Shown: in pieces, positions 5,555 through 64,000 of the stretch | How the letters are laid out: each line of letters opens with the position of its first letter | How positions within the stretch are numbered: the stretch's first letter is position 1 | Assembly: GCA_030583785.1 (NCBI GenBank) | Contig: CP129475.1 | Span: 95,559-159,558 of the forward strand | Direction: 5' to 3' | DNA: 64,000 nucleotides | Source: Candidatus Dojkabacteria bacterium | GTDB lineage: Bacteria > Patescibacteriota > Dojkabacteria > B142 > OLB20 | Translations under genes and position numbers: made by a program | The notes under the pieces: model-generated | What the model was told of the DNA's origin: nothing | The model's database searches: none | What the model saw: only the letters and a program-made list of their open reading frames with translations

Positions 5555-5600
5555 AAAGATTTTCTCTTGTCATTGCTAGTCAGCATGTTTACAATATCTT

Positions 5601-6380: not shown

Positions 6381-6387
6381 ACTGTAG

Positions 6388-7101
6388 TTACTCGAAAGTA
6401 ATTATTCCAAGAAGTGTGTTAAAAACATTTACATTACTGTTAAATGCTTCTGGAGCAGTTCTGTATTCTAAGACATATACTTTTCCTGAGTTCTCGATTA
6501 CTCCAATCTTTGCTTTTCTTGTACCAAATATTACTGAATCTTCTGATCCTTCAACGATAATCCATGAGTTTGGTCCGGCATCAAGTGATTCTTCAGTAGC
6601 CGAGTCAAGAGATGACTTAGTCGATGATACAACACTGCTTAGTGAACCACTTCTTTGGGTGATGGTGACTAGGCCTGCTGTTTCGCTTTCGGTTGGAATA
6701 GGTTCTGGGGCAATTCCTAGTGTAGATGCATTTCTTCTAAAGAACCAAGTGGAGGGTCTGTAGAATTTATAGCCGATTCCTTCAATTTCAATTTCTTTCC
6801 AATTTGCAGGAACCTCGACTGTAACATCTGTTTCTGATGATGTTGGTGTAACAGTGGCTGTTGGTGTTGCAATGCTTGTAACAGTGACAGTTGGGGTTAC
6901 CTCGGTTTCGGTATTTGTGTCCGAATTGTCGGCAGGATCGTTATCTGTTTGAGAATCTTGATTACCAGACTGCGAAATAAGGTATACGCTGGCCAGTGCT
7001 ATGACGGCAACGAGTAATACCATAGGAAGTACTTTAGAAACACCTCCGGAGCTTTCTGCTGCTCGTATATTTCTAATAGAAGGGGAACTAGAATCTTGCA
7101 T
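6388..7101 (-). CDS. membrane-anchored hypothetical protein with Thr/Pro-rich linker (paralog family)
   Basis: TM helix, then TPTVTVTSIATPTATVTPTSS linker, then a domain with GYKFYRPSTWFF resembling the neighbouring paralogs. Confidence 0.55.
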   Translation of the reverse strand: MQDSSSPSIRNIRAAESSGGVSKVLPMVLLVAVIALASVYLISQSGNQDSQTDNDPADNSDTNTETEVTPTVTVTSIATPTATVTPTSSETDVTVEVPANWKEIEIEGIGYKFYRPSTWFFRRNASTLGIAPEPIPTESETAGLVTITQRSGSLSSVVSSTKSSLDSATEESLDAGPNSWIIVEGSEDSVIFGTRKAKIGVIENSGKVYVLEYRTAPEAFNSNVNVFNTLLGIITFE

Positions 7102-7247
7102 AGTTGAGATACTAATAGATGATTAATCTAAATATAGGTTTTGATGATTATAAAGTCAATCTTTAGGGTAACATTCAGTTTTTCCTGTCGTATCTCAATG
7201 TACTATCTTTCCATAAAAGGGGGGATTTGATAGTATGAAATACACGC

Positions 7248-8780
7248 ATGATTATGAATAAAACAGATAAAATCAATCAGGTTTCAATGCCTGTTTTGTA
7301 CTTGCTAGTAATGGCAATCGTATCTGTAGTAATAATATCCACGGTTAATGCTCTTACTCCAAATCCTTCCGCCCCGAAATATGAAGAATCTGAAGATGCT
7401 AATACACTAGAACAAGATCCTGTTATATCAGATCAGGTTCACTTAAAAGTCCATAGTAGAGATTTAAATTCTCAAGTAATTAGAGAAAAAAAGAGTCTAC
7501 CGGTTTACAACGGAATGAATCTTTATTCAGAAGATAAGATAATTCAAGCTTCTGAAGATGAGTTGTACCTGCTTTCAGAAAACGGCATCTTGTTAATGCT
7601 CGAAAATGGATCAGAATTAAGAATCACAGATTTGACTGAAGATAGCATAAATCTTCAAGACACAACAGGTAGATTCTGGATTCGTATCGAAAAGAATAGC
7701 GATTATCGAGTTATCCTTCAAAATATTGATTTCACAGCAAGAAATACTTTGTTAATGATCGAAGATAGCAAACTTAATGTTATTGAAGGGCAAGTTAATA
7801 TCTCTGGAAAAGAAGTCGGCTCAGAAGAGTCAGTTGACATGATATCTTCGGGAGTAAATCAGTCGAGTATAATTAAAGATAAAAGATATTTATATCTTCT
7901 TTGTCTAGACGAAACACTTGTTACGGAGAATGTATTGCAACAGCCGTTTACCCAAGCTTTAGAGAGTGTTTCCAAAATCTTAAATGAATCAACAAAATGC
8001 TCAGCTATTCTTGGTGTAAGTACTTCAAATAACCAAAACCAAGCTCTCGAGACTTATCAATACATAAAACCTAAAGTAACAGTAAAACCATTGCCTACAA
8101 TCATTCCTACCAAACTAGAGAAAGCTGAATTACTATTTGCATACGATGATGATAAGGCGTTTTGTAAATGGGATTTATCCGGAGAACTTAAAGAGACTCA
8201 ACAGCTTTCGTTTTCACTATGGCAATATAACGAAGGAGTTAACGACACAACTTTAATTGATTGGACTGCAGTAGATTCAAAATCTAGAGAAGTTGAACTG
8301 ATCTTGGCACCAGATCTAAGTTTCACTAACCAGCAACCATACTATTGCATAGTGCAGATCGTTTCAGCTGAATCACAGCAATCAGTTAAATCAGACGATA
8401 CCTATTACGATATTTCTAGAGGTCATATGACCATCACCGAGCCTAGTGGATACTTTAGAGGAGAAATTGAAGGAGACGGCAGAGTCTACGATATGGATAT
8501 TAATAATGTTAAGATTCAGTATTCAATAAAACTAACTCAGTCTGGAGTTCCAGGTTCAGGCAGATACTGCTTAGGGAATGACAATTGGGGAACAATGGAA
8601 ACCTGGCTTGAAGCTCCGATTATTGTTAAAACAATCCACAACTTGTTTCTATTTAAAGATAATACTATCAGTTGCGTTTACGCCTCAAATTACGAGCAGG
8701 CATTGCTTCAGGTAAAAATGTACAACAAACTTACTGGAAAACTAATTTCTGAAACTGCTTTTCCTGTTGTTTTGAATTAA
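7248..8780 (+). CDS. membrane-anchored secreted protein with FN3-like domain (paralog of 4130-5554)
   Basis: N-terminal TM helix. The segment CKWDLSGELKETQQLSFSLWQYNEG...YYCIVQIVSAESQ is FN3-like. Overall architecture matches 4130-5554. Confidence 0.55.
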   Translation: MIMNKTDKINQVSMPVLYLLVMAIVSVVIISTVNALTPNPSAPKYEESEDANTLEQDPVISDQVHLKVHSRDLNSQVIREKKSLPVYNGMNLYSEDKIIQASEDELYLLSENGILLMLENGSELRITDLTEDSINLQDTTGRFWIRIEKNSDYRVILQNIDFTARNTLLMIEDSKLNVIEGQVNISGKEVGSEESVDMISSGVNQSSIIKDKRYLYLLCLDETLVTENVLQQPFTQALESVSKILNESTKCSAILGVSTSNNQNQALETYQYIKPKVTVKPLPTIIPTKLEKAELLFAYDDDKAFCKWDLSGELKETQQLSFSLWQYNEGVNDTTLIDWTAVDSKSREVELILAPDLSFTNQQPYYCIVQIVSAESQQSVKSDDTYYDISRGHMTITEPSGYFRGEIEGDGRVYDMDINNVKIQYSIKLTQSGVPGSGRYCLGNDNWGTMETWLEAPIIVKTIHNLFLFKDNTISCVYASNYEQALLQVKMYNKLTGKLISETAFPVVLN

Positions 8781-8837
8781 TATTTGTCTAATCTATCCTG
8801 CATATACTACAATGTGCCACCAGGTATTAGTATTATT

Positions 8838-9119
8838 ATGAACAACGAAGATACACTCGCAGATTTATCAAAAGCAGTAATGAAACTCAGGGACTCTAAA
8901 GAAGTTGCATCTTTTCTCAAAGATATATTAACCAGATCCGAGTTAGAGATAGTACTCCTTAGATGGAGAGTCGCAGGTCTATTAGATCAAGGCTTGCCAT
9001 ATACGCAGATCGAGCGAGAAACCGGAGCCAGTTCAGCAACAATAGCTAAGGTCAGTGAATTCTTAAAATATGGCTACGATGGCTACAGAATTGCTATAGA
9101 TAGAACAAAAAAACGCTAA
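8838..9119 (+). CDS. YerC/YecD (TrpR-like) family DNA-binding protein
   Basis: About 95 aa. The pattern LLTRSELEIVLLRWRVAGLLDQGLPYTQIERETGASSATIAKV matches the YerC/YecD Trp-repressor-like family. I placed the start at an internal ATG because family members are about 100 aa. Confidence 0.65.
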   Translation: MNNEDTLADLSKAVMKLRDSKEVASFLKDILTRSELEIVLLRWRVAGLLDQGLPYTQIERETGASSATIAKVSEFLKYGYDGYRIAIDRTKKR

Positions 9120-9124
9120 AACCT

Positions 9125-10420
9125 ATGAAAAACGCACAAACATTAAAAGGATTCAGAGACTTTATCGGCCAAGATTATAAACAACGAACAAACATTTTCA
9201 GACTATTTGAGGAGATATTTGGTAAGTATGGTTACGAAGGTATTCAAACTCCGGCACTAGAATATGCGCACATTCTTTTAGATAAATACGGAGAAGACGA
9301 AAAACTCGTCTACAAATTCGTTGACCATGGAGGTAGAGAAGTGGCAATGAGATATGACCTCACTGTTCCAACGGCAAGAGTTCTAGCGCAACATCGAGCC
9401 AAAATACAGTTGCCTTGGAAGCGCTATCAACTTCAGCCTGTTTGGAGAGCAGATAACACACAAAAAGGAAGATTCAGAGAATTCTATCAGTTAGACATCG
9501 ATGTTTTTGGCAGTAGTTCCTATCTAGTTGAAGTTGAGATGCTTCTTATTGGTTCGGAAGTATATTCAAGGCTAGGATTTGCAGATTATGCTGCCAGATT
9601 AAACTCCAGGCAGATTCTGAACGCAATTGTTGAGTACGCAGGCAGAAAAGATGATTTCAGCACAATTGTAACGATTATCGATAAATGGGATAAAAGAACA
9701 AAAGAAGAAACAAAGGCTGATCTATTAGATAAGCTAAGTAACAACGAGGAGGCTGTTGCCAAGATTATGCAATGTGTAGAACTTCAAGGAAGCAACTCTG
9801 AAAAAATATCGGCGCTTAAAGAAATACTCGGCAATATCATCGGTGCACAAGAGTCCTTAGCTGAAATCGAAAAGATAATTAGTTATTCCGAGAAACTCGG
9901 GAACAATAAAGTTATTTTTGATCCTACTATTGCCCGTGGACTTAGCTACTATACAGGTCCTGTTTGGGAATGGGAGATTAATGAAGGTAATGTTGGATCA
10001 GTTGGTTCTGGTGGAAGATACGACAATCTTGTTGCCTCAATCGGTGGAGAAGACACTCCTGCCTGTGGTCAATCTTTTGGTATAGAAAGGATATTAGAGG
10101 TCATGTCAGATAGGGGTATGCTTTCCAGTCAAATTCAAAGCGATTTAGTCCTAATCACCTTTCTAGATAATGAGGCAGAGGTTGTTTCTCTGGAAGTAAT
10201 GAAAGAACTGCAGGCAATCGATATAAGAACTGTAGTCTATACTGGAACAGACAAACTGCCGAAACGCTTTAAATATGCCGAAGATATTGGCGCTAGCTGG
10301 GTTGTGCTAATCGGTAGCAACGAGATTCAAGCAAATACACTTACAATAAAGAATTTAGTGAGCAAAGAGCAGGTAGAAATTCAGCGTTCAGAATTAGCAT
10401 CATATTTTGTTTCTAATTGA
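9125..10420 (+). CDS. hisS: histidyl-tRNA synthetase
   Basis: Class IIa motifs are present: KGFRDF, RYDLTVPTAR (motif 2 region), GGRYDNL (motif 3) and a C-terminal anticodon-binding domain. Length is 431 aa. Confidence 0.92.
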   Translation: MKNAQTLKGFRDFIGQDYKQRTNIFRLFEEIFGKYGYEGIQTPALEYAHILLDKYGEDEKLVYKFVDHGGREVAMRYDLTVPTARVLAQHRAKIQLPWKRYQLQPVWRADNTQKGRFREFYQLDIDVFGSSSYLVEVEMLLIGSEVYSRLGFADYAARLNSRQILNAIVEYAGRKDDFSTIVTIIDKWDKRTKEETKADLLDKLSNNEEAVAKIMQCVELQGSNSEKISALKEILGNIIGAQESLAEIEKIISYSEKLGNNKVIFDPTIARGLSYYTGPVWEWEINEGNVGSVGSGGRYDNLVASIGGEDTPACGQSFGIERILEVMSDRGMLSSQIQSDLVLITFLDNEAEVVSLEVMKELQAIDIRTVVYTGTDKLPKRFKYAEDIGASWVVLIGSNEIQANTLTIKNLVSKEQVEIQRSELASYFVSN

Positions 10421-10475
10421 CTAAGCTTTTCGTTTAGTCGATAATTTTATTTAATTTAATTAATTTTGAATAATT

Positions 10476-11114
10476 ATGAGTAAAAAAGTAGTTTTACTAG
10501 TAGTTGGTCTGTTACTCTTTTGTTGTCTTGTAAGTTGCTGTTTGATCTTCTCCTTACCGCTTCTATCTCCAGATCTTGCCAAACAGCTCAACATTGAAAC
10601 AACATTCGATTCAAATTTTGATCTAAGCGAATTCGGACTGGGTACAAACACGAACACAAACACAACCACTCCGAGTAATGAGGAGCAAAAGTTCACTCAT
10701 GCAACCTTGGGTTTTTCGATTATTGTTCCAAAAACATGGCAATTTGAAGAAGATTCAACTTCAGCTGTATTTTATTCGCCAGAAGAAGATGCGTTCATTA
10801 CTTTTGAGGCCTTCAGCGATGGTGAAACAACAGGCAGGGTTGATGTTAACCAAACATTCTGCGATGAATTTGGCGAGGGCTTTAGATCGGGTCTTCCAGC
10901 TGAAACAGAAGGAATTGGCTACTTTGATTTTAAATCCTTCAATCTAAACGGTAATGCAGGATGCAGAGCAGAGGGCGAAATCTTCGGACAAAGTCAGAAG
11001 TATTATGTATTCTACAATAACTCTAATTCAAAATATTACTCAATCTTTTACACGATTAGTTCGGAAGCTGATAAAGCAGCTGTATCAAAATATATGGATA
11101 CCTTGTCATTCTAG
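10476..11114 (+). CDS. secreted hypothetical protein (paralog family with GFSIIVPKTW domain)
   Basis: Signal/TM N-terminus, TNTNTNTTTP low-complexity linker, then LGFSIIVPKTWQFEE domain similar to 5601-6380 and 6388-7101. Confidence 0.55.
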   Translation: MSKKVVLLVVGLLLFCCLVSCCLIFSLPLLSPDLAKQLNIETTFDSNFDLSEFGLGTNTNTNTTTPSNEEQKFTHATLGFSIIVPKTWQFEEDSTSAVFYSPEEDAFITFEAFSDGETTGRVDVNQTFCDEFGEGFRSGLPAETEGIGYFDFKSFNLNGNAGCRAEGEIFGQSQKYYVFYNNSNSKYYSIFYTISSEADKAAVSKYMDTLSF

Positions 11115-11134
11115 TTATCAGGGTTAGTACTTTT

Positions 11135-11170
11135 GAAGCCCCGCCTTGAAAAGGCGGGGCTTCTTGTTAC
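11135..11170. terminator. hairpin between convergent genes (likely bidirectional terminator)
   Basis: GAAGCCCCGCC-ttgaaaa-GGCGGGGCTTC is a perfect 11-bp stem, followed by a T-rich tract on the plus strand. It lies between the 10476-11114 (+) ORF and mnmA (-). Confidence 0.6.
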
Positions 11171-12240
11171 TTTATTATGCCGCTTCCGAGACAGGTTTGT
11201 TGATCATAAAAGACAATGCTTTGACCTGATGCAATGCCTCTTTGAGGAGAATCGAAACGAAAATGCTCGTTATTTATAAATGTTCCCGATGCTGCCTTTT
11301 GTCTGTATCTAATAACAGCTTGAATATGACTTTCGGGTGTTATTGTCTCAGAGATATAATTTATATTTTCGAAATACACATCCTTGGCAAACAAAGCTGG
11401 ATGATCTTTACCCATAGCCACTAGAAGTTCGTTGTTTGGCACATCTTTATAAGCTACAAAGTAGGGTACTTTTGCTCCACCAATTTTTAAGCCCTCTCTT
11501 TGCCCGATAGTATAAAAGAACACCCCATCGTGCTCTCCGAGTATCTTTCCCGTATCAAAATCTTTTATCACGCCTTTTTGTTGTTTAATTTCTTTCCTAA
11601 GGAACTCTTTTACATTGATTTCACCAATAAAGCAGATTCCTTGGCTATCTGGTTTATTGGCAACGAGCAATTTATTATCATTGGCAATTTGTCGGATTTC
11701 TGGCTTAGTATATGATCCTATAGGAAAAAGGCTCTTAGATAACTGTTCTTGGGTAAGCTGGCATAGAAAGTAGCTTTGGTCTTTATTTTCGTCTACCCCT
11801 TTTTGAAGTTGATATAGGTTTTCCTGTTTTGTTACTCTCGCATAGTGTCCAGTTGCAATAAGATCTGCTCCCATGCTTATTGCTTTATCCAGAAATAATG
11901 AGAACTTGATCTCTTTATTACAGACAATATCCGGATTTGGAGTTCTTCCGGCTCTAATCTCGCTAAAGAAGTAATTTACAACCTTATCACGATATTCTTT
12001 TTCGAAATTAAAGGACATGAAAGGAATATCTAGTTGCCCACAAACTGCCTCAACATCTTTCTGATCTGTCTCCCAAGGGCAATCTGCCTGAAGACCATAG
12101 TCATCACCTGACCAGTTCTTCATAAATACCCCAGTAATGTTAAACCCTTGTTGTTTAAGGAGCAGTGCGGCAACAGAACTGTCGACACCACCGGACATGG
12201 CTACGAAAACTTTTGTTTTACTGTTATCTTGATTTTGCAT
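11167..12240 (-). CDS. mnmA: tRNA-specific 2-thiouridylase MnmA
   Basis: PP-loop VFVAMSGGVDSSVAA. The conserved MnmA core and the C-terminal cysteine (CFIGE) region are present. Confidence 0.9.
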   Translation of the reverse strand: MQNQDNSKTKVFVAMSGGVDSSVAALLLKQQGFNITGVFMKNWSGDDYGLQADCPWETDQKDVEAVCGQLDIPFMSFNFEKEYRDKVVNYFFSEIRAGRTPNPDIVCNKEIKFSLFLDKAISMGADLIATGHYARVTKQENLYQLQKGVDENKDQSYFLCQLTQEQLSKSLFPIGSYTKPEIRQIANDNKLLVANKPDSQGICFIGEINVKEFLRKEIKQQKGVIKDFDTGKILGEHDGVFFYTIGQREGLKIGGAKVPYFVAYKDVPNNELLVAMGKDHPALFAKDVYFENINYISETITPESHIQAVIRYRQKAASGTFINNEHFRFDSPQRGIASGQSIVFYDQQTCLGSGIIK

Positions 12241-12260
12241 TAGGCAATTATATCATGCCT

Positions 12261-13343
12261 TTAGAAGAGTCTAGTGTCGGGATAATGATCTGCCCATGTG
12301 TACCAGAAAGATGTAAATATTTGCACATCTGCGGTTGGTTCTGAATCAACTACTAGTGAGTAATAGCCCTCTTCTGCCTTAATGGTAAACAATTTCCCTC
12401 CGATTTTAATTGTTCTATTGCCGTCTTGTTCGATTATTGATGCAGGAACAGCATAGGCATTACCCGACACAATAAACCCGATAACAATATCTTTGTTGTT
12501 TATATCTTTTCTGCTATTGCCGACTGGACCGATGATGTCTGGAGCCTGGGCAAAGCCTTCGTAACGATCTCTTGAGTAGATGGCACTTCTACCGGTATCA
12601 AAAGAGATAAATTCTGCATCAGGAAAGATTGTTTTCGCTGCCGAATAGGTTCCCTGCCAATAATTTACTGATTTCAGTTCTGCTCCGGTTAGCTTTCCTA
12701 CCATGGCTTTACCGCTAAACACCGACCAGAGAGAATCTGTTTTGTTGTCAAAAATAAGATCTGTGTTTTTATATAACAGTCCGCTACCAGCAAAGTCGAG
12801 TATTTCGTTTTTATAGACCCTCTCAAAAACATGAAACGATTGAGAGAAACCACTAAAAATGACTGCAATCGGAGTCCCTTGCAGAGTGTCGTTGATAACT
12901 ACATGTCTATTTAGAATTCTTTGTGGATATATTCTAACCTTGTCATTAATTTTAACCGCTATAACTTCGTCTTTATCTGTCATGCAAAGATCTGCATCTG
13001 AGAAACTCATGTATTTTGTATCGATAACGGGTTGTATTTCATTAAGAAACCCTGGTTGTTGATATGTTTCATTCTCAATATCAATTCTGCTTATTTCGAA
13101 TAATGTATTTAGGTCCGTTTTATCGATTGGGCGAACTTGTTCTTTGTTTGTTAGGGTGCAATTGAAAGAGGATTGTTCTGCGAGTATTGATTCTTGCGGA
13201 CTTGTTGGCCTACCGCCCGCAGCTTGCAAAAGGATTGCTCCCATAGTAAACAGAGCAAGCAAAGTCCAGGCTCTGTTTGTTATCCCTAAAGCGCGCATTA
13301 TTCTACTTTGTTTCTTTTCTTTCAAGGCGTTATTATCTAACAT
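12261..13343 (-). CDS. secreted hypothetical protein
   Basis: 360 aa. N-terminal signal-like hydrophobic segment. I recognise no catalytic motifs. Confidence 0.5.
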   Translation of the reverse strand: MLDNNALKEKKQSRIMRALGITNRAWTLLALFTMGAILLQAAGGRPTSPQESILAEQSSFNCTLTNKEQVRPIDKTDLNTLFEISRIDIENETYQQPGFLNEIQPVIDTKYMSFSDADLCMTDKDEVIAVKINDKVRIYPQRILNRHVVINDTLQGTPIAVIFSGFSQSFHVFERVYKNEILDFAGSGLLYKNTDLIFDNKTDSLWSVFSGKAMVGKLTGAELKSVNYWQGTYSAAKTIFPDAEFISFDTGRSAIYSRDRYEGFAQAPDIIGPVGNSRKDINNKDIVIGFIVSGNAYAVPASIIEQDGNRTIKIGGKLFTIKAEEGYYSLVVDSEPTADVQIFTSFWYTWADHYPDTRLF

Positions 13344-37187: not shown

Positions 37188-37268
37188 TGCCGAGGAGAGG
37201 AGTCGAACCTCCACATCCGAAGATACTGGTTCCTAAGACCAGCGCGTCTGCCATTCCGCCACCTCGGC
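37188..37268 (-). tRNA. tRNA-Leu (anticodon UAG), class II with long variable arm, no encoded CCA
   Basis: The reverse complement GCCGAGGTGGCGGAATGGCAGACGCG-CTGGT-CTTAGGA-ACCAG-(13-nt variable arm)-GGAGGTTCGACTCCTCT-CCTCGGC-A folds as a cloverleaf with a 7-bp acceptor stem, GTTCGA T-loop and anticodon TAG. Confidence 0.8.
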
Positions 37269-57564: not shown

Positions 57565-57755
57565 AACCTAATACTAGCACAAACTTGACCGCTCTCAACT
57601 TAGAAATAAAATAATTAAGGTTTTTTTGTAGGACAAAATTCATCATTTCTCTTAAAGTAATAGTCAGTAAAGAAAAACGAGAGAAAATAATATATACCAT
57701 TTAAATATCACTGTAGCTTGACAGTCACAATCGCTAGTTGTTATGTTTATTACGC

Positions 57756-57773
57756 ACCACAATAAATTGTGGT
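57756..57773 (+). promoter_or_regulatory. putative NrdR-box-like palindromic operator upstream of nrdR
   Basis: ACCACAAT-AA-ATTGTGGT is a perfect 8-bp inverted repeat. It resembles the NrdR box core CACwAT..ATwGTG. It sits about 30 nt upstream of the nrdR start. Confidence 0.5.
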
Positions 57774-57802: not shown

Positions 57803-58267
57803 ATGTTGTGTCCTTATTGCCATTCAAACAATTCCAAGGTCGTTGATAAAAGAGATAACAAAGAAACAGGCGTAACCAGAAGAAGAAGAGAGTGTTTGCA
57901 ATGCAAAAAAAGATTTACTACATACGAAAGAGTTGAAACAATAAGTCTTCATGTAGTAAAAAGAAGTGGTAAGTTAGAAGAATTTGATCGAGAGAAGCTC
58001 AAAAAAGGCATAGTAAAAGCTGTAAAGAAAAGACAAATCCCCGAAGCAGAGATTGATGATCTCATAGACGACATCGAACTCAAACTGCTCAATAGACAAA
58101 CTAAAGAGATTCGTTCCACAGAGATCGGAAAAATGGTACTTACAAGACTTAAAAAGTTAGATACTATCGGATATTTGCTGTTTGCATCTGTATACAGAGA
58201 TTTTAATAGTATCAAAGACTTTGAAGATGCGATTGCAGAATTAAAAGCTCCAAATAATATAGATTAA
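57803..58267 (+). CDS. nrdR: transcriptional repressor NrdR
   Basis: MLCPYCHSNNSKVVDKR...RRRECLQCKKRFTTYE Zn-ribbon followed by an ATP-cone. The ORF-track TTG start at 57794 was trimmed to the ATG at 57803. Confidence 0.9.
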   Translation: MLCPYCHSNNSKVVDKRDNKETGVTRRRRECLQCKKRFTTYERVETISLHVVKRSGKLEEFDREKLKKGIVKAVKKRQIPEAEIDDLIDDIELKLLNRQTKEIRSTEIGKMVLTRLKKLDTIGYLLFASVYRDFNSIKDFEDAIAELKAPNNID

Positions 58268-58282
58268 TATTCAAGCAAAACC

Positions 58283-60064
58283 ATGACTAAAAAAAGATTC
58301 TCCAAACAAGTCAACCTCACAGATAATGCTAATCTAATTGCAGAAAAAAGATATCTTAAGCTCGAAGCGGACGGATCTGTTAAAGAATCTGTCAACGAAA
58401 TGTTTACCAGAGTAGCTAGATTTATTGCAAGCGGAGATCTTGACCTCTCTGATAAATCAGAGAGCTATAAGAAACCTTCTCAAAGCGAACTAGAAGAAAT
58501 CGAAGACAGCTTCTATGAAATACAAGCTAATCTAGAATTTCTCTCTGGAATGTCGTTACTAGACAGGGGTAAACAAGATTTAGTTGCGGCGTGTTATGTA
58601 TTACCAATAAAAGACAGCATAGAGTCCATATATGGAACACTTGCCAATGCAGTTGTTTTGCACAGAAGAGGAGCTGGTATTGGCTATGATTTTTCAGAAA
58701 TAAGACCAGAAGGAGACATTGTGAATACAACGGGTAGAGAAGCCAGCGGTCCGATCTCTTTCATGAAGTTATACGACTATTCCTCTGAAGTTATAATGAA
58801 CAGAGGCGCCGTTAGGCATGCTGGTCATATGGGAATTTTGCGCATAGATCACCCAGATGTCAGAAAATTCCTGTCGGCCAAACAAGATAATACTCAACTA
58901 ACAAACTTCAATATATCTATTGCAATCACAGACGAGTTTATTGATGCTTTGGAGAAGAACACTGAATACGAGCTTAAACATGAAGGTAAAGTGTATGGAA
59001 AAATCCTTGCTAAAGAAATGCTTACAGAAATCGCAGAAAGTATTCATAAAAGCGGAGAACCTGGCTTTATCTTTGTAGACGAGATTAATAGACACAATCC
59101 AACATTGCATGTCGGGTTAATGACATCAACTAACCAATGTGGCGAACAACCATTGCTTCCTTACGAAGCGTGTAATCTTGGTTCGGTGGTACTCAATAAA
59201 TTTGTTATCAAAGGAACAGATAACAAGAAAACACATGATCGAATTGATTGGGATAGATTGGAATATGTTGTTAAAACTGCTGTGCATTTTCTGGATAACA
59301 CGATCACAGTGTCCAGGCATCTTCTTCCAGAGATTGAAAAATTGGTTAAACATGGGAACAGAAAAATTGGAGTCGGTGTCATGGGTTGGGCAGATATGCT
59401 TTACGAGCTCAATATCCCCTATAACTCTCAAGAAGCTCTCGACCTAGCTGAACAAATAATGGGCTTTATTAAAGAAAAGGGACATGAAAAATCACAAGAA
59501 CTTGGCAAACTCAAAGGTGACTTTGGTAACTTCAAAGGCTCAAAATGGCACAAAGAAGGATACACGAACATGCGCAACGCGACAGTTACAACCATTGCTC
59601 CCACAGGCACTACCAGCTTGCTAGCCAACTGTAATGGAGGTATAGAACCATTTTTTGCACTTGCTTATATTCGCAAGAATATGGAAACAATGGGTGACAC
59701 AGAAATGATTTATGTAAACGAACTACTTGAACAAAAACTTAAAGACGAATGGCTTTACGATAAAGAGCTCATGCGAAATATTGCCGAGAAAGGGACCTTA
59801 TCATCATTTAATCAAATTCCCGAACGAATTAGAAAAGTTTATGTTTGCTCATTTGACATCGAACCCGAGTGGCACATTAGAATGCAGGCAGCCTTTCAAA
59901 AATTCACAGATAATGCAGTTTCAAAAACAATAAATCTTCCTGAATCAGCTAGCACAGAAGATATTATTTCTGCATTCAAGCTGGCTGCAAAGCTAGGTCT
60001 AAAAGGACTGACAATTTATCGTGACAAAAGCAGAGACCAGCAAGTACTTAATTTAACTAAATAA
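58283..60064 (+). CDS. nrdJ: class II (adenosylcobalamin-dependent) ribonucleotide reductase NrdJ
   Basis: CYVLPIKDS...GAGIGYDFSEIRPEGD, ILRIDHPD, NQCGEQPLLPYEACNLGS (thiyl-radical Cys loop), and C-terminal SKTINLP...GLKGLTIYRD. 593 aa. Confidence 0.88.
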   Translation: MTKKRFSKQVNLTDNANLIAEKRYLKLEADGSVKESVNEMFTRVARFIASGDLDLSDKSESYKKPSQSELEEIEDSFYEIQANLEFLSGMSLLDRGKQDLVAACYVLPIKDSIESIYGTLANAVVLHRRGAGIGYDFSEIRPEGDIVNTTGREASGPISFMKLYDYSSEVIMNRGAVRHAGHMGILRIDHPDVRKFLSAKQDNTQLTNFNISIAITDEFIDALEKNTEYELKHEGKVYGKILAKEMLTEIAESIHKSGEPGFIFVDEINRHNPTLHVGLMTSTNQCGEQPLLPYEACNLGSVVLNKFVIKGTDNKKTHDRIDWDRLEYVVKTAVHFLDNTITVSRHLLPEIEKLVKHGNRKIGVGVMGWADMLYELNIPYNSQEALDLAEQIMGFIKEKGHEKSQELGKLKGDFGNFKGSKWHKEGYTNMRNATVTTIAPTGTTSLLANCNGGIEPFFALAYIRKNMETMGDTEMIYVNELLEQKLKDEWLYDKELMRNIAEKGTLSSFNQIPERIRKVYVCSFDIEPEWHIRMQAAFQKFTDNAVSKTINLPESASTEDIISAFKLAAKLGLKGLTIYRDKSRDQQVLNLTK

Positions 60065-60066
60065 TT

Positions 60067-60516
60067 ATGCAAGTGGGATTAGATACATTCAATATTTCAT
60101 ACAATGTCTTTATGAGTAAAGTCGGCAAAGACTTATCTGTAGGAGTTAGGATTAAAGCTTCAACAGATACCAAAAAAGATGTTGTTAGAGTATGGACAGA
60201 TACAAAAAATTGGCAGTTTAGTTTGGTGGGGCTCATAGACGAAGATGCAAACATTTCGATTGAAAGGGTAGAGATTCAATCGTTCGGTGATAGTCTTGCT
60301 TACTTAAAACTTATTGCTATTCACGAGAAGCCTTCGTTTAAGATAGATCTTCAAAAACTTGGTTCTGGATTTGCTGAACTTGCGCAAGTTTCTAACGATG
60401 AAGCACAAATCTTTCTAGATAATTATATGCAGTCATCTGTAAATTTAACATTAACGGAGCAACTGTTCTCTGATTATGCCAAAGACGAGAACACAAAAAG
60501 CTGGCTAACATTATGA
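60067..60516 (+). CDS. hypothetical protein
   Basis: 149 aa, located between nrdJ and the Nudix gene. I recognise no motifs. Confidence 0.45.
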   Translation: MQVGLDTFNISYNVFMSKVGKDLSVGVRIKASTDTKKDVVRVWTDTKNWQFSLVGLIDEDANISIERVEIQSFGDSLAYLKLIAIHEKPSFKIDLQKLGSGFAELAQVSNDEAQIFLDNYMQSSVNLTLTEQLFSDYAKDENTKSWLTL

Positions 60517-61382
60517 ACAATCTAACAATAAACACAATAGGTCTTGTCTATAACACAGAAGGGAAATTCCTGATTGGAAAAAGATCCTCAATAGAATTAC
60601 ACGAACCAGGTCTATATTCATATCTAGGAGGCAAACTTGATTACAATGGTGAATTGCAGGCTGGTAAATCGATGTTTCTTTTAGAAGAAAACCTTAAAAG
60701 AGAAATAAAAGAAGAAGCAGGAGTTGAAATTGAAGTCTCAGAATATCTTTCTAGTCATGCATTTGTTAAAGATAACGGAGATAAAGTTGTGGTCATCGCA
60801 TATTTAGCAGAGTATGTTTCAGGAATTCTAACTCCGCAACAAGATGAGGTTGAAGAATTAATTTGGATCACCCGAGAAAACCTAAAGGAAATAAACACCT
60901 TAGATATTATTAAAGAAGTCTATACTCAGGCTTTTGACAAAATTGAACAGAATAGACAAAGATTTACTATTGAACTGGCCGGAATCGTCTTAAATGATAA
61001 CGAAGAATTTTTATTAGTCAGAAAAAATAATAGCGCAGAAAAGTTTTCCCTTCCAAGCGGAGCTTTCAGCTCAAAAGCAGTTGGTAGCTGGGAAGTTATG
61101 GAAAGCTCCCTTGCAAAGATAATATTTCAGCAGACCGGAATAGAAATTGCAGATGGTCCGATTCCTTTTACAGATCAATTACTTATGGATAAAACTGAAG
61201 AGAAGTTACTTCAACTATTTATCTGCCGCTATAAATACGGAAATATCCAAATTAAATCTCCAGAAGAAATTGCCGAAGTAAAATGGATTCATATAAATGA
61301 CATTGAAAGAAAAGATCTGAACGAAAGGGACTACCTTATCCTTTACAAAGCATCAGATTTTATTTCAAAACTAAACGATTAA
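60513..61382 (+). CDS. tandem-Nudix-domain hydrolase
   Basis: First Nudix box GGKLDYNGELQAGKSMFLLEENLKREIKEEAGVEI (GX5EX7REUXEEXGU). The second half (LPSGAFSSKAVGSWEVMESSLAKIIFQQTGIEI) is a degenerate second Nudix fold. Confidence 0.7.
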   Translation: MNNLTINTIGLVYNTEGKFLIGKRSSIELHEPGLYSYLGGKLDYNGELQAGKSMFLLEENLKREIKEEAGVEIEVSEYLSSHAFVKDNGDKVVVIAYLAEYVSGILTPQQDEVEELIWITRENLKEINTLDIIKEVYTQAFDKIEQNRQRFTIELAGIVLNDNEEFLLVRKNNSAEKFSLPSGAFSSKAVGSWEVMESSLAKIIFQQTGIEIADGPIPFTDQLLMDKTEEKLLQLFICRYKYGNIQIKSPEEIAEVKWIHINDIERKDLNERDYLILYKASDFISKLND

Positions 61383-61402: not shown

Positions 61403-64000
61403 ATGATGAACACAGCTAAAACAGACTTCTTTGACGATATTCTTGATACACCGGCAGATCTTTTTGATCCAAAAGTATCTGCCAATTCATTAGAGATCAT
61501 GAAAAAAAGACATCTCTTAAAAGACGAAAACGGTGATCTGCTTGAAGAGCCTAAAGATATGTTTTGGCGCGTTGCCAGAAGCATGGCACTTGAAGATGGT
61601 AAATATGTCAAAGGAGCTCAGGCCAGAAAAGAAAGAGTAATAATGAGAACGGCAAAAGAATTTTACGAACTTCTTGCACAAAACAGATTCTTACCCGGTT
61701 CTAGAGTTCTTTACGAGGCAGGAAACGAAATCGACGGAACAGGACAGCTTTCATCATGTTTTGTACTTCCAATAGAAGATAGCCTTGAATCAATTTTCGA
61801 AACAATGAAGGAAGCAGCTATTGTGCAAAAGAACAATGGTGGAACAGGCTTTAACTTCTCGCACATCAGACCAAAAGGAGATAGTGTTGGTGGCACCCCT
61901 AATGTTGCAGCAGGTCCAATACATTTTGTCAGAAGCTTTTCACAAGCCTTCGATCAGGTCCTGCAAGGCAAAAAACGAGGTGGTGGCAACATGGCTATAC
62001 TTAATGTTAATCATCCAGACATCATTGAATTTATAAACCTAAAAGGACAAGATTCTTCGATTCGCAACTTTAATATATCTGTTGGTATAACCGACGAGTT
62101 TATGCAAGCTGTCAAAGATGACGAAGAGTATGACTTAATTAATCCAAGAACAGGTAAATCCGTAGAGAAGAAAAAAGCCAGAGAAGTATTTAACCTTATT
62201 TGCCAAAAGGCATGGGAATGTGCAGACCCGGGATTGTTCTTTTTAGATACGACACAAAACGCAAATCCAACAAAGCCTTTAGGTATCATAGAAGCAACAA
62301 ATCCATGCGGAGAAGAACCTCTAAGAGCGTATGAATCATGTAATCTAGGCTCAATAGTACTTCCTTCGCATCTTATTAAAGTTGATGATCGCTACGAAAT
62401 CGACTGGGAACTTCTTAGGAAAACAACCAGATCAGCAATACACTTCCTGGACAACATGATAGATCTAAGCAAGTTTCCGCTTAAAAAGATTGAAGAACAG
62501 GTTGAAATGACACGCAAACTGGGACTTGGTGTCGTTGGATTGGCCTCAATGTTCTATCAAATGCGTATTGCTTACAATTCAACCGAAGGAACAGAGCTAG
62601 CAAGAAAAATAATTAGATTCGTACAAGATGAGTCAGTTAAAGAATCTGAATTGCTTGCCAAAGATCGTGGTGTATTCCCCGGATTTGCAGGCAGTAAATG
62701 GGACGAAATGGGTATAAAAGTTCGAAATGCAACTATGACATCAGTCGCACCAACTGGTACTTTAAGTCTTGTAGCAGATACTTCAAGTGGAATTGAGCCT
62801 GTATTTGCTTTGGTTTACAAACGAAACAGTTTTTATCAAGACGAAGCACAAGAAAATCGCAAGGGCTTGCTATATATTGACAGACACTTTGAAACTTATG
62901 CTAAAGAATCTGGATTCTATTCAGAAGAACTTATGGAACGAATTGCCGATAATCATGGTTCATTGCAGGGTTTAGATGAAGTTCCAGACGAAGCAAAAGA
63001 AGTATTTGTTGTAACGCACGACATATCACCAGAATGGCATGTGCGCATGCAAGCTTCAGCTCAAGAATCTGTCGATGCAGCTGTTTCTAAAACAATCAAT
63101 TTACCTTCTGATGCCACGATTGAAGATGTGAAAAGAGCCTATACTAATGCTTGGGAGCTTGGTTGTAAAGGCATAACAATTTATCGAGACGGAAGTAAAC
63201 AATATCAGGTACTTGAAAATGTTTCCAAAAAAGAAAAGGTTGAAAATATCGATGAACAATCGACTAAAGACGAGTCAGTTACAAGTTCCGAAACTGAAGA
63301 ACTAACAGAACATGCACTTACAGTTTTAGAAAAGAGGGCATTAAAAAAAGATTCAGCAGGAAATGTTATTGAATCGGCCGATGAACTTTGGATGAGAATT
63401 GCTTCGAAAGTTGCTGAAGCCGAGTCTTCTGAAAATCGCGAGATATTTACTAAAGAATTCTATCAAATCCTTTCTAAAAGAGAATTCCTTAGTGGCGGAA
63501 CACTTCTCTGGGCTGGTATGGGCGAAGAAACCATTCTTTCTAAATGCCTTGTACTCCCTGTAGGAGATTCAATAGATTCAATTTTCCAAACTCTAAACTG
63601 GAACATCCAATGTCTAAGAAGAGGTGTAGGAACAGGCTTTAATTTCTCAAATATTCGCTCAAGTTACGCCAAAGTAAAAACAACAGGTGAATTTGCTGCC
63701 GGACCTGTTGAATATTTACGAATGTATAACAGAGCACAAGACACAATTAGAGGACGAGGAGGCAGGGGACTTGGCTCAATGGCAATACTAAATGCGGATC
63801 ATCCCGATGTTGAGGCGTTTATTGAATGTAAAGATGATCTAAACGCAATTTCTCATTACAATATATCTGTTGGCATTAGCGATGCCTTTATGAGAGCTGT
63901 AAAATCAGATGCAGATTGGAATCTAGTTGATCCGAATGACGGACAGATTTATAAGACCGTCAAAGCAAGGGCGTTATTTGAGAAAATTGCGCAACACGCT
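61403..64000 (+). CDS. nrdJ: second class II ribonucleotide reductase that continues in frame into a third NrdJ-like module (tandem NrdJ-NrdJ fusion); 3' end outside window
   Basis: Manual translation from ATG 61403. Module 1 has CFVLPIEDS...GGTGFNFSHIRPKGD, ILNVNHPD, NPCGEEPLRAYESCNLGS and SKTINLPSDAT...GCKGITIYRD (ends near 63200). After an acidic Ser-rich linker, module 2 restarts with CLVLPVGDSIDSIF...GTGFNFSNIR...ILNADHPDVEAFIECK. I found no stop codon through to 64000. Confidence 0.8.
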   Translation, partial: MMNTAKTDFFDDILDTPADLFDPKVSANSLEIMKKRHLLKDENGDLLEEPKDMFWRVARSMALEDGKYVKGAQARKERVIMRTAKEFYELLAQNRFLPGSRVLYEAGNEIDGTGQLSSCFVLPIEDSLESIFETMKEAAIVQKNNGGTGFNFSHIRPKGDSVGGTPNVAAGPIHFVRSFSQAFDQVLQGKKRGGGNMAILNVNHPDIIEFINLKGQDSSIRNFNISVGITDEFMQAVKDDEEYDLINPRTGKSVEKKKAREVFNLICQKAWECADPGLFFLDTTQNANPTKPLGIIEATNPCGEEPLRAYESCNLGSIVLPSHLIKVDDRYEIDWELLRKTTRSAIHFLDNMIDLSKFPLKKIEEQVEMTRKLGLGVVGLASMFYQMRIAYNSTEGTELARKIIRFVQDESVKESELLAKDRGVFPGFAGSKWDEMGIKVRNATMTSVAPTGTLSLVADTSSGIEPVFALVYKRNSFYQDEAQENRKGLLYIDRHFETYAKESGFYSEELMERIADNHGSLQGLDEVPDEAKEVFVVTHDISPEWHVRMQASAQESVDAAVSKTINLPSDATIEDVKRAYTNAWELGCKGITIYRDGSKQYQVLENVSKKEKVENIDEQSTKDESVTSSETEELTEHALTVLEKRALKKDSAGNVIESADELWMRIASKVAEAESSENREIFTKEFYQILSKREFLSGGTLLWAGMGEETILSKCLVLPVGDSIDSIFQTLNWNIQCLRRGVGTGFNFSNIRSSYAKVKTTGEFAAGPVEYLRMYNRAQDTIRGRGGRGLGSMAILNADHPDVEAFIECKDDLNAISHYNISVGISDAFMRAVKSDADWNLVDPNDGQIYKTVKARALFEKIAQHA

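What the first reader, a model, noticed from the sequence alone, without database searches (positions are those of the whole stretch)
61403..64000. In-frame tandem fusion of two class II ribonucleotide reductase (NrdJ) modules
Reading the frame that starts at ATG 61403 gives a complete NrdJ-like module of about 600 aa. Its hallmarks are VLPIEDS, GGTGFNFSHIRP, ILNVNHPD, the NPCGEEP thiyl-radical loop and SKTINLP...ITIYRD. After a 35-aa acidic Ser/Thr/Glu linker at about 63200-63300 the frame continues, with no stop, into a second NrdJ N-terminal region. That region has VLPVGDSIDSIF, GTGFNFSNIR and ILNADHPDVEAFIECK, and it runs to the window edge. The ORF track missed the ORF only because it has no stop inside the window. 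Monomeric and dimeric class II RNRs are well established. A covalent head-to-tail duplication, which might form a pseudo-dimer or pair one catalytic module with one degenerate regulatory module, is not an architecture I recognise.
Basis: seen in the sequence. Interest (0 to 1): 0.78.

Follow-up and report, generated by a model that had tools for sequence, protein, structure and literature searches.

The report
Two B12 ribonucleotide reductases fused
The gene is real and conserved: in many ultra-small (Patescibacteria/CPR) bacteria, two anciently diverged, apparently active B12-dependent ribonucleotide reductase units are joined in one 1,400–1,500-residue protein with a single shared redox tail. 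I found no description of this enzyme layout in the searchable literature.

Summary
Observation confirmed. The frame from ATG 61403 stays open to the window edge (866 codons) and holds one complete NrdJ module, a roughly 34-residue hydrophilic linker, and the start of a second module. A near-identical contig (1 mismatch in 2,598 nt) carries the ORF to a stop at 1,465 aa. About 100 protein clusters of 1,318–1,498 aa from independent assemblies (Dojkabacteria/WS6, Parcubacteria and other Patescibacteria) share the layout, so misassembly is excluded.

It is not a recent duplication. The modules are about 41% identical. Module 2 groups with the separate tail-less 593-aa NrdJ at 58283–60064 (NJ bootstrap 72%). 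Module 1 groups, more weakly (54%), with stand-alone NrdJs.

Both modules keep the three catalytic cysteines and the N-x-C-G-E loop in all or nearly all of 99 family members. Both are equally conserved (0.71 vs 0.69 mean identity; linker 0.25). Each passes the class II NCBIfam cutoff on its own. The degenerate-module idea is therefore not supported.

Only module 2 carries the IscU-like domain and six-cysteine zinc-finger tail.

Best reading: a covalent hetero-pair of active reductases sharing one redox tail, in a conserved nrdR–nrdJ–nrdJJ operon. An intramolecular pseudo-dimer is plausible but unproven (AlphaFold pTM 0.55–0.56). I rate it a new variant of a known kind, absent from the searchable literature.

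The parts
57756..57773 (.). Perfect palindrome ACCACAATAAATTGTGGT in the promoter region upstream of nrdR; candidate NrdR box
   Evidence: It matches the NrdR-box consensus with 3 mismatches. The number of such matches in the window is not above chance, so the assignment rests on position alone and is weak.
57803..58267 (+). nrdR (154 aa), first gene of the operon
   Evidence: Pfam Zn_ribbon_NrdR + ATP-cone. The gene call in L001 starts at the ATG equivalent to 57803. nrdR occupies the same position in L084, L085, L087 and L088.
58283..60064 (+). 'A593': separate 593-aa NrdJ paralog with no C-terminal tail; sister clade of module 2
   Evidence: It has Cys104, N-Q-C286-G-E and Cys297. Its apical loop is the non-canonical S-G-M-S. 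It ends ...TIYRDKSRDQQVLNLTK with no cysteine after the barrel.
60067..60516 (+). 149-aa ORF of unknown function inside the operon
   Evidence: No Pfam or NCBIfam hit. Not conserved at this position in L087 or L088.
60513..61382 (+). 289-aa NUDIX hydrolase gene directly upstream of the fused gene
   Evidence: Pfam NUDIX E=4e-18 in two stretches. A 144-aa NUDIX gene sits at the same position in L087.
61403..64000 (+). Fused double NrdJ ORF, first 866 of 1,465 codons; it continues about 1.8 kb past the window edge
61403..63220 (+). Module 1 (residues 1-606): complete NrdJ barrel with no redox tail. Cys119 at nt 61757-61759, N300-P-C302-G-E304 (Cys302 at nt 62306-62308), Cys313 at nt 62339-62341. 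Apical phosphate loop P98-G-S-R101 at nt 61694-61705.
   Evidence: Scored alone it reaches 653 bits on TIGR02504 NrdJ_Z (cutoff 400), matched end to end.
63221..63322 (+). Inter-module linker (residues 607-640): K/E/S/T-rich and predicted disordered
   Evidence: pLDDT is below 50 for model residues 589-615. Across the family the linker is 22-82 aa by BLAST-derived module boundaries and 18-73 aa by a motif-based definition. Its mean identity is 0.22-0.25.
63323..64000 (+). Module 2, N-terminal 226 of about 572 core residues. Cys715 at nt 63545-63547; non-canonical apical loop S697-G-G-T700 at nt 63491-63502. Beyond the window lie the thiyl loop (N896-P-C898-G-E900), Cys909, the TSCPD/IscU-like domain and the six-Cys zinc finger.
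   Evidence: Module 2 core alone scores 595 bits on TIGR02504. Core plus tail aligns to NF006417 positions 19-759 of 759.

Best explanation
The ORF starting at 61403 encodes a bona fide 1,465-residue class II (adenosylcobalamin-type) ribonucleotide reductase. Two anciently diverged NrdJ catalytic modules are joined by a flexible, non-conserved linker. Only the second module is followed by the usual NrdJd C-terminal extension (IscU-like/TSCPD domain plus six-cysteine zinc-finger CRD).

Shown: the fusion is real and is conserved across Patescibacteria. Each module is a complete RNR barrel. Both retain the radical cysteine, the redox cysteine pair and the Asn/Glu of the active site, together with the Asp and Arg that (by my recollection of the E. 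coli R1 numbering) bind the specificity effector. Both are under equal purifying selection. The gene sits in a conserved nrdR - single nrdJ - (nudix) - double nrdJ operon.

Inferred: both modules are active reductases. The fusion tethers a tail-less reductase (module 1) at 1:1 stoichiometry to a partner whose single CRD tail re-reduces both active sites, and possibly also that of the tail-less A593 protein. The two modules probably pair through the canonical aA/aB helix interface to form a covalent heterodimer with two non-equivalent specificity and active sites. They differ in the apical phosphate loop: module 1 has P-G-[S/G/A]-R (triphosphate-like), while module 2 has a unique shorter [C/S]-G-G-[T/A] loop. 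They also differ in loop 2.
For: Reality and conservation:
- The frame is open through the junction and the full-length twin is 1,465 aa.
- 99 homologs of 1,318-1,498 aa come from NCBI, JGI, ENA and Logan assemblies.

Integrity of each module:
- Cys1, N-x-C-G-E and Cys3 are kept in both modules in all or nearly all of 99 proteins.
- TIGR02504 scores 653 bits (module 1) and 595 bits (module 2) against a cutoff of 400. The class I model TIGR02506 scores 301 and 298 bits, below its cutoff of 341.
- AlphaFold gives pLDDT 88-89, and Foldseek matches T. maritima NrdJ 1XJE with TM 0.83-0.84 normalised to the target.

Equal constraint: mean pairwise identity is 0.71 (module 1), 0.69 (module 2) and 0.25 (linker).

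Ancient paralogy: module 1 and module 2 are 41% identical. NJ bootstrap is 100% for the module 2 clade, 100% for the A clade and 72% for A+module 2.

Single tail:
- TSCPD and C-x2-C-x9-C-x2-C-x2-C-x4-C occur only after module 2.
- Only 4 of 72 linkers contain any cysteine.

Precedent for tail sharing: in S. nassauensis NrdJd all six CRD cysteines are needed for turnover with TCEP, and a mix of an active-site mutant with a CRD mutant is active. That shows electron transfer between subunits. CRD-less NrdJd were detected only in genomes that also encode an NrdJd with a CRD (PMC5704485).

Operon synteny and B12 link. A cob(I)alamin adenosyltransferase gene (PF02572) lies immediately downstream of the fused gene in L083 and L085, and one gene further downstream in L084.
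Against: - No biochemical data exist for any family member.
- AlphaFold does not place the two modules confidently relative to each other (pTM 0.55 and 0.56), so the intramolecular dimer is unsupported.
- Some members carry a whole Ham1/ITPase domain in the linker (P0241), and linkers vary from 22 to 82 aa. Both argue against a tight geometric requirement.
- Stand-alone module 1 orthologs exist (L002, 584 aa, 64% identical). Module 1 therefore does not strictly need module 2.
- The apical loop and loop 2 of module 2 lie outside every experimentally characterised motif class (PMC8365446), so normal NDP/NTP reduction by module 2 is an assumption.
- AdoCbl binding was not tested.
Confidence: 0.6

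Rival explanations
1. Beads on a string. The two modules do not pair with each other. Each dimerises in trans (module 1 with module 1', module 2 with module 2', or module 1 or 2 with the separate A593 protein), giving higher-order assemblies. The fusion then serves only co-expression, stoichiometry and tail sharing.
For: - pTM is only 0.55-0.56 despite pLDDT of 88-89.
- A Ham1 domain is inserted in the linker of P0241.
- Stand-alone module 1 orthologs presumably homodimerise.
- A third, unpaired module (A593) is always encoded next door.
- CRD-dependent tetramers and hexamers are documented for S. nassauensis NrdJd (PMC5704485).
Against: Nothing here excludes it. A 22-82-aa linker is also long enough for intramolecular pairing. 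No stand-alone, intact module 2 with a CRD was found. The only stand-alone relative, P0246, lacks the CRD, has CNLG changed to CILG and has a degraded APTG motif.
Confidence: 0.3
2. Catalytic plus regulatory pseudo-enzyme. One module, most likely module 2 with its aberrant phosphate loop and loop 2, no longer reduces nucleotides. It serves as the dimer-interface and specificity-site partner and as the carrier of the redox tail for module 1. This would resemble the inserted interface-mimic domain of monomeric L. leichmannii NrdJm or the inactive Rnr4 partner of yeast beta (both recalled from my own knowledge).
For: - The apical loop of module 2 ([C/S]GG[T/A] or SGQA, one residue shorter) matches neither PNSP nor P[ASG]GR.
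- The conserved loop-2 Gln is lost in module 2.
Against: - The thiyl Cys, both redox Cys, and the Asn and Glu are invariant in module 2 in all or nearly all of 99 sequences spanning down to about 47% identity.
- Conservation equals that of module 1.
- A pure scaffold would not be expected to retain the radical machinery.
Confidence: 0.1
3. Assembly or gene-calling artefact: two adjacent nrdJ genes collapsed or read through at 63200-63300.
For: None beyond the general possibility in metagenome assemblies.
Against: - About 100 clusters from independent projects share the same uninterrupted architecture, at 44-83% (module 1) and 42-80% (module 2) identity to the query modules.
- Two near-identical contigs agree across the junction.
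- The linker has no in-frame start codon.
- Other >1,500-aa hits turned out to be intein-bearing single NrdJs and are clearly distinguishable.
Confidence: 0.01

Closest known systems
Dimeric class II RNR, NrdJd (T. maritima NrdJ, PDB 1XJE/3O0O; S. nassauensis NrdJd)
   Same: Each module has the same fold (Foldseek TM 0.83-0.84 normalised to the target, 35-36% identity). Each has the same catalytic Cys/Asn/Glu set and passes TIGR02504 NrdJ_Z. Module 2 carries the same IscU-like domain and six-Cys zinc-finger tail, with spacing C-x2-C-x9-C-x2-C-x2-C-x4-C against x5 for the last gap in S. nassauensis.
   Different: Two non-identical modules (41% identity) sit in one polypeptide rather than two identical chains. 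There is one tail per two active sites. The apical phosphate loops are not the canonical PNSP.
Split class II RNR NrdJa + NrdJb (P. aeruginosa)
   Same: It shows that the catalytic barrel and the CRD tail are separable units that can act across polypeptide boundaries (PMC5704485, PMC9669993).
   Different: It is the opposite genetic event, a fission of one enzyme. Here two complete barrels are fused.
Monomeric class II RNR NrdJm (L. leichmannii RTPR)
   Same: It is a single polypeptide that supplies its own 'partner' surface for the allosteric specificity site (PMC5704485 introduction).
   Different: NrdJm uses an inserted domain that mimics the interface. Here the candidate partner is a whole second catalytic module. 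NrdJm uses a short Cys-pair tail. The RTPR model TIGR02505 scores only 107 bits on P0001 (cutoff 340).
Genomes with several separate NrdJ genes of differing phosphate specificity (Loderer et al. 2021, PMC8365446); CRD-less NrdJd co-occurring with a CRD-bearing NrdJd (Loderer et al. 2017)
   Same: Multiple NrdJ paralogs with different apical loops occur in one genome. Tail-less paralogs depend on the presence of a tailed one. Unfused multi-nrdJ clusters behind nrdR were seen here too (L002, L003).
   Different: In those cases the paralogs are separate proteins. Here two of the three are covalently joined, and this is conserved across a phylum-level lineage.
Other RNR domain fusions (Grx-ATP-cone-NrdB of Facklamia ignava, PMC6187632)
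   Same: It is a precedent for fusing the redox supply to an RNR subunit.
   Different: It involves a different subunit and class, and no second catalytic barrel.

Membership tests
Class II ribonucleotide reductase (NrdJ) | RNR ten-stranded alpha/beta barrel with an N-terminal all-alpha domain, in each module | tested here: met
   Pfam Ribonuc_red_lgN + lgC appear twice. The AlphaFold models have pLDDT 88-89. Foldseek's top hits are T. maritima NrdJ chains, E about 1e-46, TM 0.83-0.84 normalised to the target.
Class II ribonucleotide reductase (NrdJ) | Active-site set: thiyl Cys on the finger loop (N-x-C-G-E), the redox Cys pair, and Asn and Glu | tested here: met
   Module 1 has C119, N300, C302, E304 and C313. 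Module 2 has C715, N896, C898, E900 and C909. These residues are invariant or nearly so in 99 homologs.
Class II ribonucleotide reductase (NrdJ) | Passes the curated class II model and not the class I model, tested per module | tested here: met
   TIGR02504 scores 653 bits (module 1) and 595 bits (module 2 core) against a cutoff of 400. TIGR02506 NrdE_NrdA scores 301 and 298 bits against a cutoff of 341.
Class II ribonucleotide reductase (NrdJ) | Adenosylcobalamin binding and AdoCbl-dependent radical generation | not testable with these tools
   Only indirect evidence exists. A cob(I)alamin adenosyltransferase gene (PF02572) lies just downstream of the fused gene in L083-L085. None was found in the window or in L001.
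Dimeric subclass NrdJd with CRD | C-terminal IscU-like (TSCPD) domain plus six-cysteine zinc-finger CRD | tested here: met
   Met for module 2 only: PF12637 plus [26 protein letters not shown] at the C-terminus. Module 1 and A593 have no tail and no cysteine after the barrel.
Dimeric subclass NrdJd with CRD | Homodimer through the aA/aB helices, forming the specificity site | tested here: inconclusive
   The Asp of P-x-x-D-S and the Arg of S-x-x-R-P are invariant in module 1, module 2 and A593. I assign these to the specificity site from my recollection of the E. coli R1 numbering. The relative module placement has pTM of only 0.55-0.56. The oligomeric state is unknown.
Dimeric subclass NrdJd with CRD | Apical phosphate loop P-N-S-P (diphosphate) or P-[A/S/G]-G-R (triphosphate), found in more than 97% of NrdJ (PMC8365446) | tested here: not met
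   Module 1 has P-G-S-R here. Across the family it is P-G-[S/G/A]-R in most members and PNSP-like in about 6. Module 2 has S-G-G-T, and across the family [C/S/A/P]-G-[G/Q]-[T/A/P], one residue shorter. A593 has S-G-M-S. The closest tested analogue is TVNrdJm-G68S (P-A-S-R), which kept its GTP preference with traces of GDP reduction.
Monomeric NrdJm / RTPR | Passes the RTPR model; has the interface-mimic insertion | tested here: not met
   TIGR02505 scores 107 bits against a cutoff of 340.

The most novel reading that the evidence does not exclude
The three NrdJ modules of this operon (A593, module 1, module 2) form one assembly that shares a single CRD redox tail and has divided the work of nucleotide reduction among hard-wired, non-equivalent active sites. 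The sites would differ in phosphorylation level and/or base preference, as suggested by three different apical phosphate loops and three different loop-2 sequences. The fused module 1-module 2 pair would be the first natural covalent heterodimer of RNR catalytic subunits. The M2/A lineage would then be a new NrdJ subclass whose substrate specificity falls outside the PNSP/PAGR rule.
Probability: 0.15. Interest if true: 0.85.

Novelty: new variant of a known kind. Interest (0 to 1): 0.62.

Why it matters
RNR is the only de novo route to DNA precursors. Its quaternary structure underlies its allosteric substrate-specificity control, because the specificity site exists only at a dimer interface.

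All characterised catalytic (alpha) subunits pair as homodimers or, in NrdJm, mimic a partner with an inserted domain. A natural single-chain pair of two different, apparently active barrels with one redox tail would be an asymmetric RNR. It would allow three questions to be tested with single-site mutants in one polypeptide:
- whether communication between the specificity site and the active site runs across the interface;
- whether one CRD tail can serve two or three active sites;
- what non-canonical phosphate loops do.

It also shows that genome-reduced Patescibacteria devote about 6.2 kb (three RNR barrels) to this one step. That points to unusual demands on their salvaged nucleotide pools, and the neighbouring NUDIX genes and the Ham1 domain inserted in some linkers fit this picture.

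Practically, automatic annotation labels these proteins as ordinary NrdJ/NrdZ. Surveys of domain architecture, phylogenies and NrdJ copy-number counts may therefore mishandle them.

Tried and rejected
- **Genome-contig scan.** I ran it with full-length P0001 to get a species-level distribution. I reused those loci as a canonical reference set.
- **AlphaFold on two members (and 75/84).** I modelled P0001 residues 16-1215 and the short-linker P0103 residues 1-1160 to look for an intramolecular dimer. Both gave pTM 0.55-0.56, which is uninformative. The tool returns no PAE or coordinates, so geometry could not be checked.
- **Recent tandem duplication.** Rejected on 41% identity and on the tree.
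- **Intein or long-insertion explanation for the length.** Rejected. The other >1,500-aa hits carry inteins, whereas this family has two full barrels.
- **Internal translation start for module 2.** There is no in-frame ATG in the linker.
- **NrdR-box search.** The number of matches in the window is not above chance. Only the palindrome at 57756-57773 is positionally plausible.
- **B12-binding residues.** The papers I could read list none, so AdoCbl-site conservation was not scored.
- **Literature.** Eight full-text searches and four RNR family papers found no mention of a double NrdJ. Subscription-only papers and RNRdb itself were not searchable.
Full report
**1.

Translating 61403-64000 on the + strand gives 866 sense codons with no stop.

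Pfam reports the RNR all-alpha domain twice, and the barrel domain in three stretches at E=2.9e-161. The ORF is missing from the ORF list only because it runs off the window.

A protein search returned P0001, 1,465 aa. It is encoded on a 76.6-kb Logan contig that matches the window with one substitution (61814 G/C, Ala->Pro) over the 2,598-nt overlap. The reading frame therefore continues about 1.8 kb past the window edge to a normal stop.

The sub-parts, mapped by BLAST of the two cores, are:
- module 1: residues 1-606 (nt 61403-63220);
- linker: residues 607-640 (nt 63221-63322);
- module 2 core: residues 641-1212;
- tail: residues 1213-1465.

**2. It is not an artefact**

Ninety-nine further proteins of 1,318-1,498 aa show the same two-module layout. 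They come from NCBI, JGI, ENA and Logan assemblies. Identity to the query modules runs from 83% down to 44% for module 1 and from 80% down to 42% for module 2. Sources name them Dojkabacteria (WS6), Parcubacteria, Andersenbacteria or simply 'Patescibacteria group'. One is KXK27461.1 / UniProt A0A136M0N6 from WS6 bacterium OLB20, annotated 'NrdZ'.

A scan of 1.84 billion representative proteins found only two full-length representatives that score like two modules: P0241 and P0103. Four of the other hits longer than 1,500 aa were checked, and all four are single NrdJs carrying inteins. The architecture is thus real, conserved and phylogenetically narrow.

**3. Anatomy**

Taken alone, each module is a complete class II RNR:

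| Test | Module 1 | Module 2 core | Cutoff |
|---|---|---|---|
| TIGR02504 NrdJ_Z (class II), bits | 653, end to end | 595 | 400 |
| TIGR02506 NrdE_NrdA (class I), bits | 301 | 298 | 341 |

Module 2 plus its tail aligns to NF006417 over positions 19-759 of 759.

AlphaFold models of the two-module core (P0001 residues 16-1215; P0103 residues 1-1160) have mean pLDDT of 88.2 and 89.2. The linker is the only long disordered stretch. Foldseek's best matches are T. maritima NrdJ chains, with TM 0.83-0.84 normalised to the target.

The catalytic set is present in both modules and is invariant or nearly so across the 99 proteins:
- first redox Cys: C119 / C715;
- N-x-C-G-E with the thiyl Cys: C302 / C898;
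- second redox Cys: C313 / C909.

The Asp of P-x-x-D-S and the Arg of S-x-x-R-P are also invariant in both modules. From my own recollection of E. coli R1 (D232, R262), these contact the specificity effector.

Mean pairwise identity within the Dojkabacteria-like subset is 0.71 for module 1, 0.69 for module 2, 0.56 for the tail and 0.25 for the linker.

The linker is K/E/S/T-rich. It is 22-82 aa by BLAST-derived boundaries and 18-73 aa by a motif-based definition. Only 4 of 72 linkers contain any cysteine, and the window's linker has no in-frame start codon.

Only module 2 is followed by a TSCPD/IscU-like domain and the terminal C-x2-C-x9-C-x2-C-x2-C-x4-C zinc finger. This is essentially the CRD of S. 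nassauensis NrdJd, whose cysteines are C920, C923, C933, C936, C939 and C945.

**4. Not a duplication but a fusion of old paralogs**

Module 1 and module 2 share about 41% identity. The separate 593-aa NrdJ at 58283-60064 ('A593') is 39-41% identical to both.

In NJ trees the module 2 sequences form a clade with 100% bootstrap, and so do the A-type proteins. Module 2 and A are sisters at 72%.

Module 1 sequences fall in a separate super-clade together with stand-alone roughly 580-630-aa NrdJs. Bootstrap for that grouping is weaker, at 54%.

The module 1 and module 2 sub-trees are broadly congruent. This favours one ancient fusion. Later events include a swapped module 2 (P0098) and a secondary stand-alone module 1 ortholog (L002, 64% identical).

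**5. Where the modules differ**

I compared the modules against 64 canonical single-module NrdJd sequences. Divergence is concentrated in three places: the apical phosphate loop, the GGGTG/loop-1 region and loop 2.

Loderer et al. 2021 (PMC8365446) showed that P-N-S-P marks diphosphate reducers and P-[A/S/G]-G-R marks triphosphate reducers. These two motifs cover more than 97% of NrdJ.

| Module | Apical loop (window) | Apical loop (family) | Loop 2 |
|---|---|---|---|
| Canonical NrdJd | P-N-S-P | - | K-Q-G-G-x-R-R-G-A-N |
| Module 1 | P-G-S-R | P-G-[S/G/A]-R in most; PNSP-like in about 6 | L-Q-G-K-K-R-G-G-G-N |
| Module 2 | S-G-G-T | [C/S/A/P]-G-[G/Q]-[T/A/P], one residue shorter | R-G-R-G-G-R-G-L-G-S |
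| A593 | S-G-M-S | S-G-M-[S/P/V], one residue shorter | N-R-G-A-V-R-H-A-G-H |

Only the central Arg of loop 2 is common to all three.

The engineered P-A-S-R variant of a viral NrdJm kept its GTP preference with traces of GDP reduction. Module 1 is therefore probably triphosphate-type. The specificities of module 2 and A593 cannot be predicted.

**6. Context**

The window carries this gene order: candidate NrdR box, nrdR (57803-58267), A593, a 149-aa ORF, a 289-aa NUDIX gene, the fused gene, then (beyond the window) a 63-aa ORF, DHODH and others.

The nrdR - single nrdJ - (NUDIX or small ORF) - double nrdJ order recurs in other Dojkabacteria (L087, L088). By matching contig lengths, at least 34 contigs carry both an A-type protein and a doubled protein.

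In more distant Patescibacteria the upstream single NrdJ takes two forms:
- A-type (L083);
- a PNSP-type with TSCPD (L084, L085).

In those loci a cob(I)alamin adenosyltransferase gene lies immediately downstream of the fused gene in L083 and L085, and one gene further downstream in L084. Two NDK genes lie nearby in L084 and L085.

One representative (P0241, 1,600 aa) carries a Ham1/ITPase domain inside the linker.

**7. Mechanism**

*Shown.* This is a conserved single polypeptide with two intact class II barrels and one redox tail.

*Inferred.* Both barrels reduce nucleotides, and the single CRD re-reduces both active sites. Experimental precedent supports the second point. In S. nassauensis NrdJd all six CRD cysteines are needed for turnover with TCEP, and a mixture of an active-site mutant with a CRD mutant regains activity. 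That shows electron transfer between subunits. CRD-less NrdJd were detected only in genomes that also encode an NrdJd with a CRD (PMC5704485). Fusion would guarantee that the tail-less module 1 sits next to a tail.

*Open.* Whether the modules pair with each other (a covalent heterodimer with two non-equivalent specificity sites) or with other chains or A593 is unresolved. pTM values of 0.55-0.56 neither support nor exclude an intramolecular interface. The variable linker and the Ham1 insertion suggest loose geometry.

The pseudo-enzyme alternative is disfavoured by the strict retention of the radical and redox residues in both modules.

**8. Comparison and novelty**

The protein passes every sequence and fold test for class II RNR membership. 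Module 2 with its tail is an NrdJd-with-CRD type. The protein fails the canonical phosphate-loop motif test. Homodimer organisation could not be tested, and neither could AdoCbl binding.

The closest known arrangements are:
- homodimeric NrdJd;
- split NrdJa+b, the inverse genetic event;
- monomeric NrdJm, which has an interface mimic;
- genomes with several separate NrdJs.

Eight full-text searches and targeted reading of the main RNR family surveys found no description of a double-barrel NrdJ. The surveys were Loderer 2017 and 2021 and Burnim 2022 in two versions. The sequences themselves are public, under generic names.

I therefore rate it a new variant of a known kind, of real interest to RNR enzymologists. 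It is not categorically new, and its functional claims still rest on inference.

Noticed in passing
P0241 (1,600 aa) and P0243; related to window 63221-63322: Some family members carry a complete Ham1/ITPase (PF01725) house-cleaning NTP pyrophosphatase domain inside the inter-module linker, giving module 1 - Ham1 - module 2 - TSCPD - CRD. P0243 is an N-terminally truncated gene call of the same layout.
   Followed up: partly
window 60513-61382: The NUDIX hydrolase gene directly upstream of the fused RNR is 289 aa, with two NUDIX-like stretches. Its positional counterpart in L087 is 144 aa, so the window's copy may itself be a doubled NUDIX. Together with the Ham1 insertion, this suggests RNR is coupled to (d)NTP pool sanitation.
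   Followed up: partly
window 58283-60064: A593 belongs to a conserved Patescibacteria clade of roughly 590-aa tail-less NrdJs. They have N-Q/L-C-G-E instead of N-P-C-G-E and an S-G-M-x apical loop. At least 34 contigs carry both this protein and a doubled NrdJ (judged by matching contig lengths).
   Followed up: yes
window 60067-60516: A 149-aa ORF lies between A593 and the NUDIX gene. It overlaps the NUDIX start by 4 nt and has no Pfam or NCBIfam hit. It is not conserved at this position in related loci.
   Followed up: partly
window 57756-57773 and 57719-57724: A perfect 18-bp palindrome ACCACAATAAATTGTGGT lies about 30 bp upstream of the nrdR start, downstream of a TTGACA hexamer. It is a plausible NrdR operator, implying autoregulation of the whole operon. 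No canonical second box at the usual spacing was identified.
   Followed up: partly
L003 (CAYICL010000002.1) 5525-12515: nrdR is followed by three separate NrdJ genes: 629 aa with PNSP, 588 aa with a C-S-G-K loop, and 747 aa with an ATP-cone and P-G-G-T. Each has its own short CRD. The first two are separated by zero intergenic bases. The record is labelled 'uncultured Pseudomonadales', which looks doubtful.
   Followed up: partly
L002 (ENA k119_107294) 5416-11975: This is an unfused relative. A module 1 ortholog of 584 aa (64% identical) is followed 19 nt later by a 733-aa ATP-cone NrdJ, and a third 589-aa NrdJ lies upstream. None of the three has a cysteine tail.
   Followed up: partly
P0098 (1,443 aa): In this doubled protein the module 2 position is occupied by a different NrdJ lineage (P-A-G-R loop, clustering with L2_589). 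That indicates a module replacement within the conserved architecture.
   Followed up: partly
L086 6001-8277 (P0246, 758 aa): This is the only stand-alone module 2-like protein found. It has a TSCPD domain but no CRD. It also has CNLG changed to CILG and a degraded APTGT motif, so it may be a decaying or neofunctionalised copy.
   Followed up: no
L083-L085, downstream of the fused gene: A cob(I)alamin adenosyltransferase gene (PF02572) lies immediately downstream of the doubled nrdJ in L083 and L085, and one gene further downstream in L084. Two tandem NDK genes lie nearby in L084 and L085, whose module 1 has a PNSP-like (diphosphate-type) loop. No cobO homolog was found in the window or in L001.
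   Followed up: partly
window 37188-37268 (-): A single tRNA gene is the only Rfam hit at gathering threshold in the 64-kb window. No cobalamin riboswitch lies near the nrd operon.
   Followed up: no
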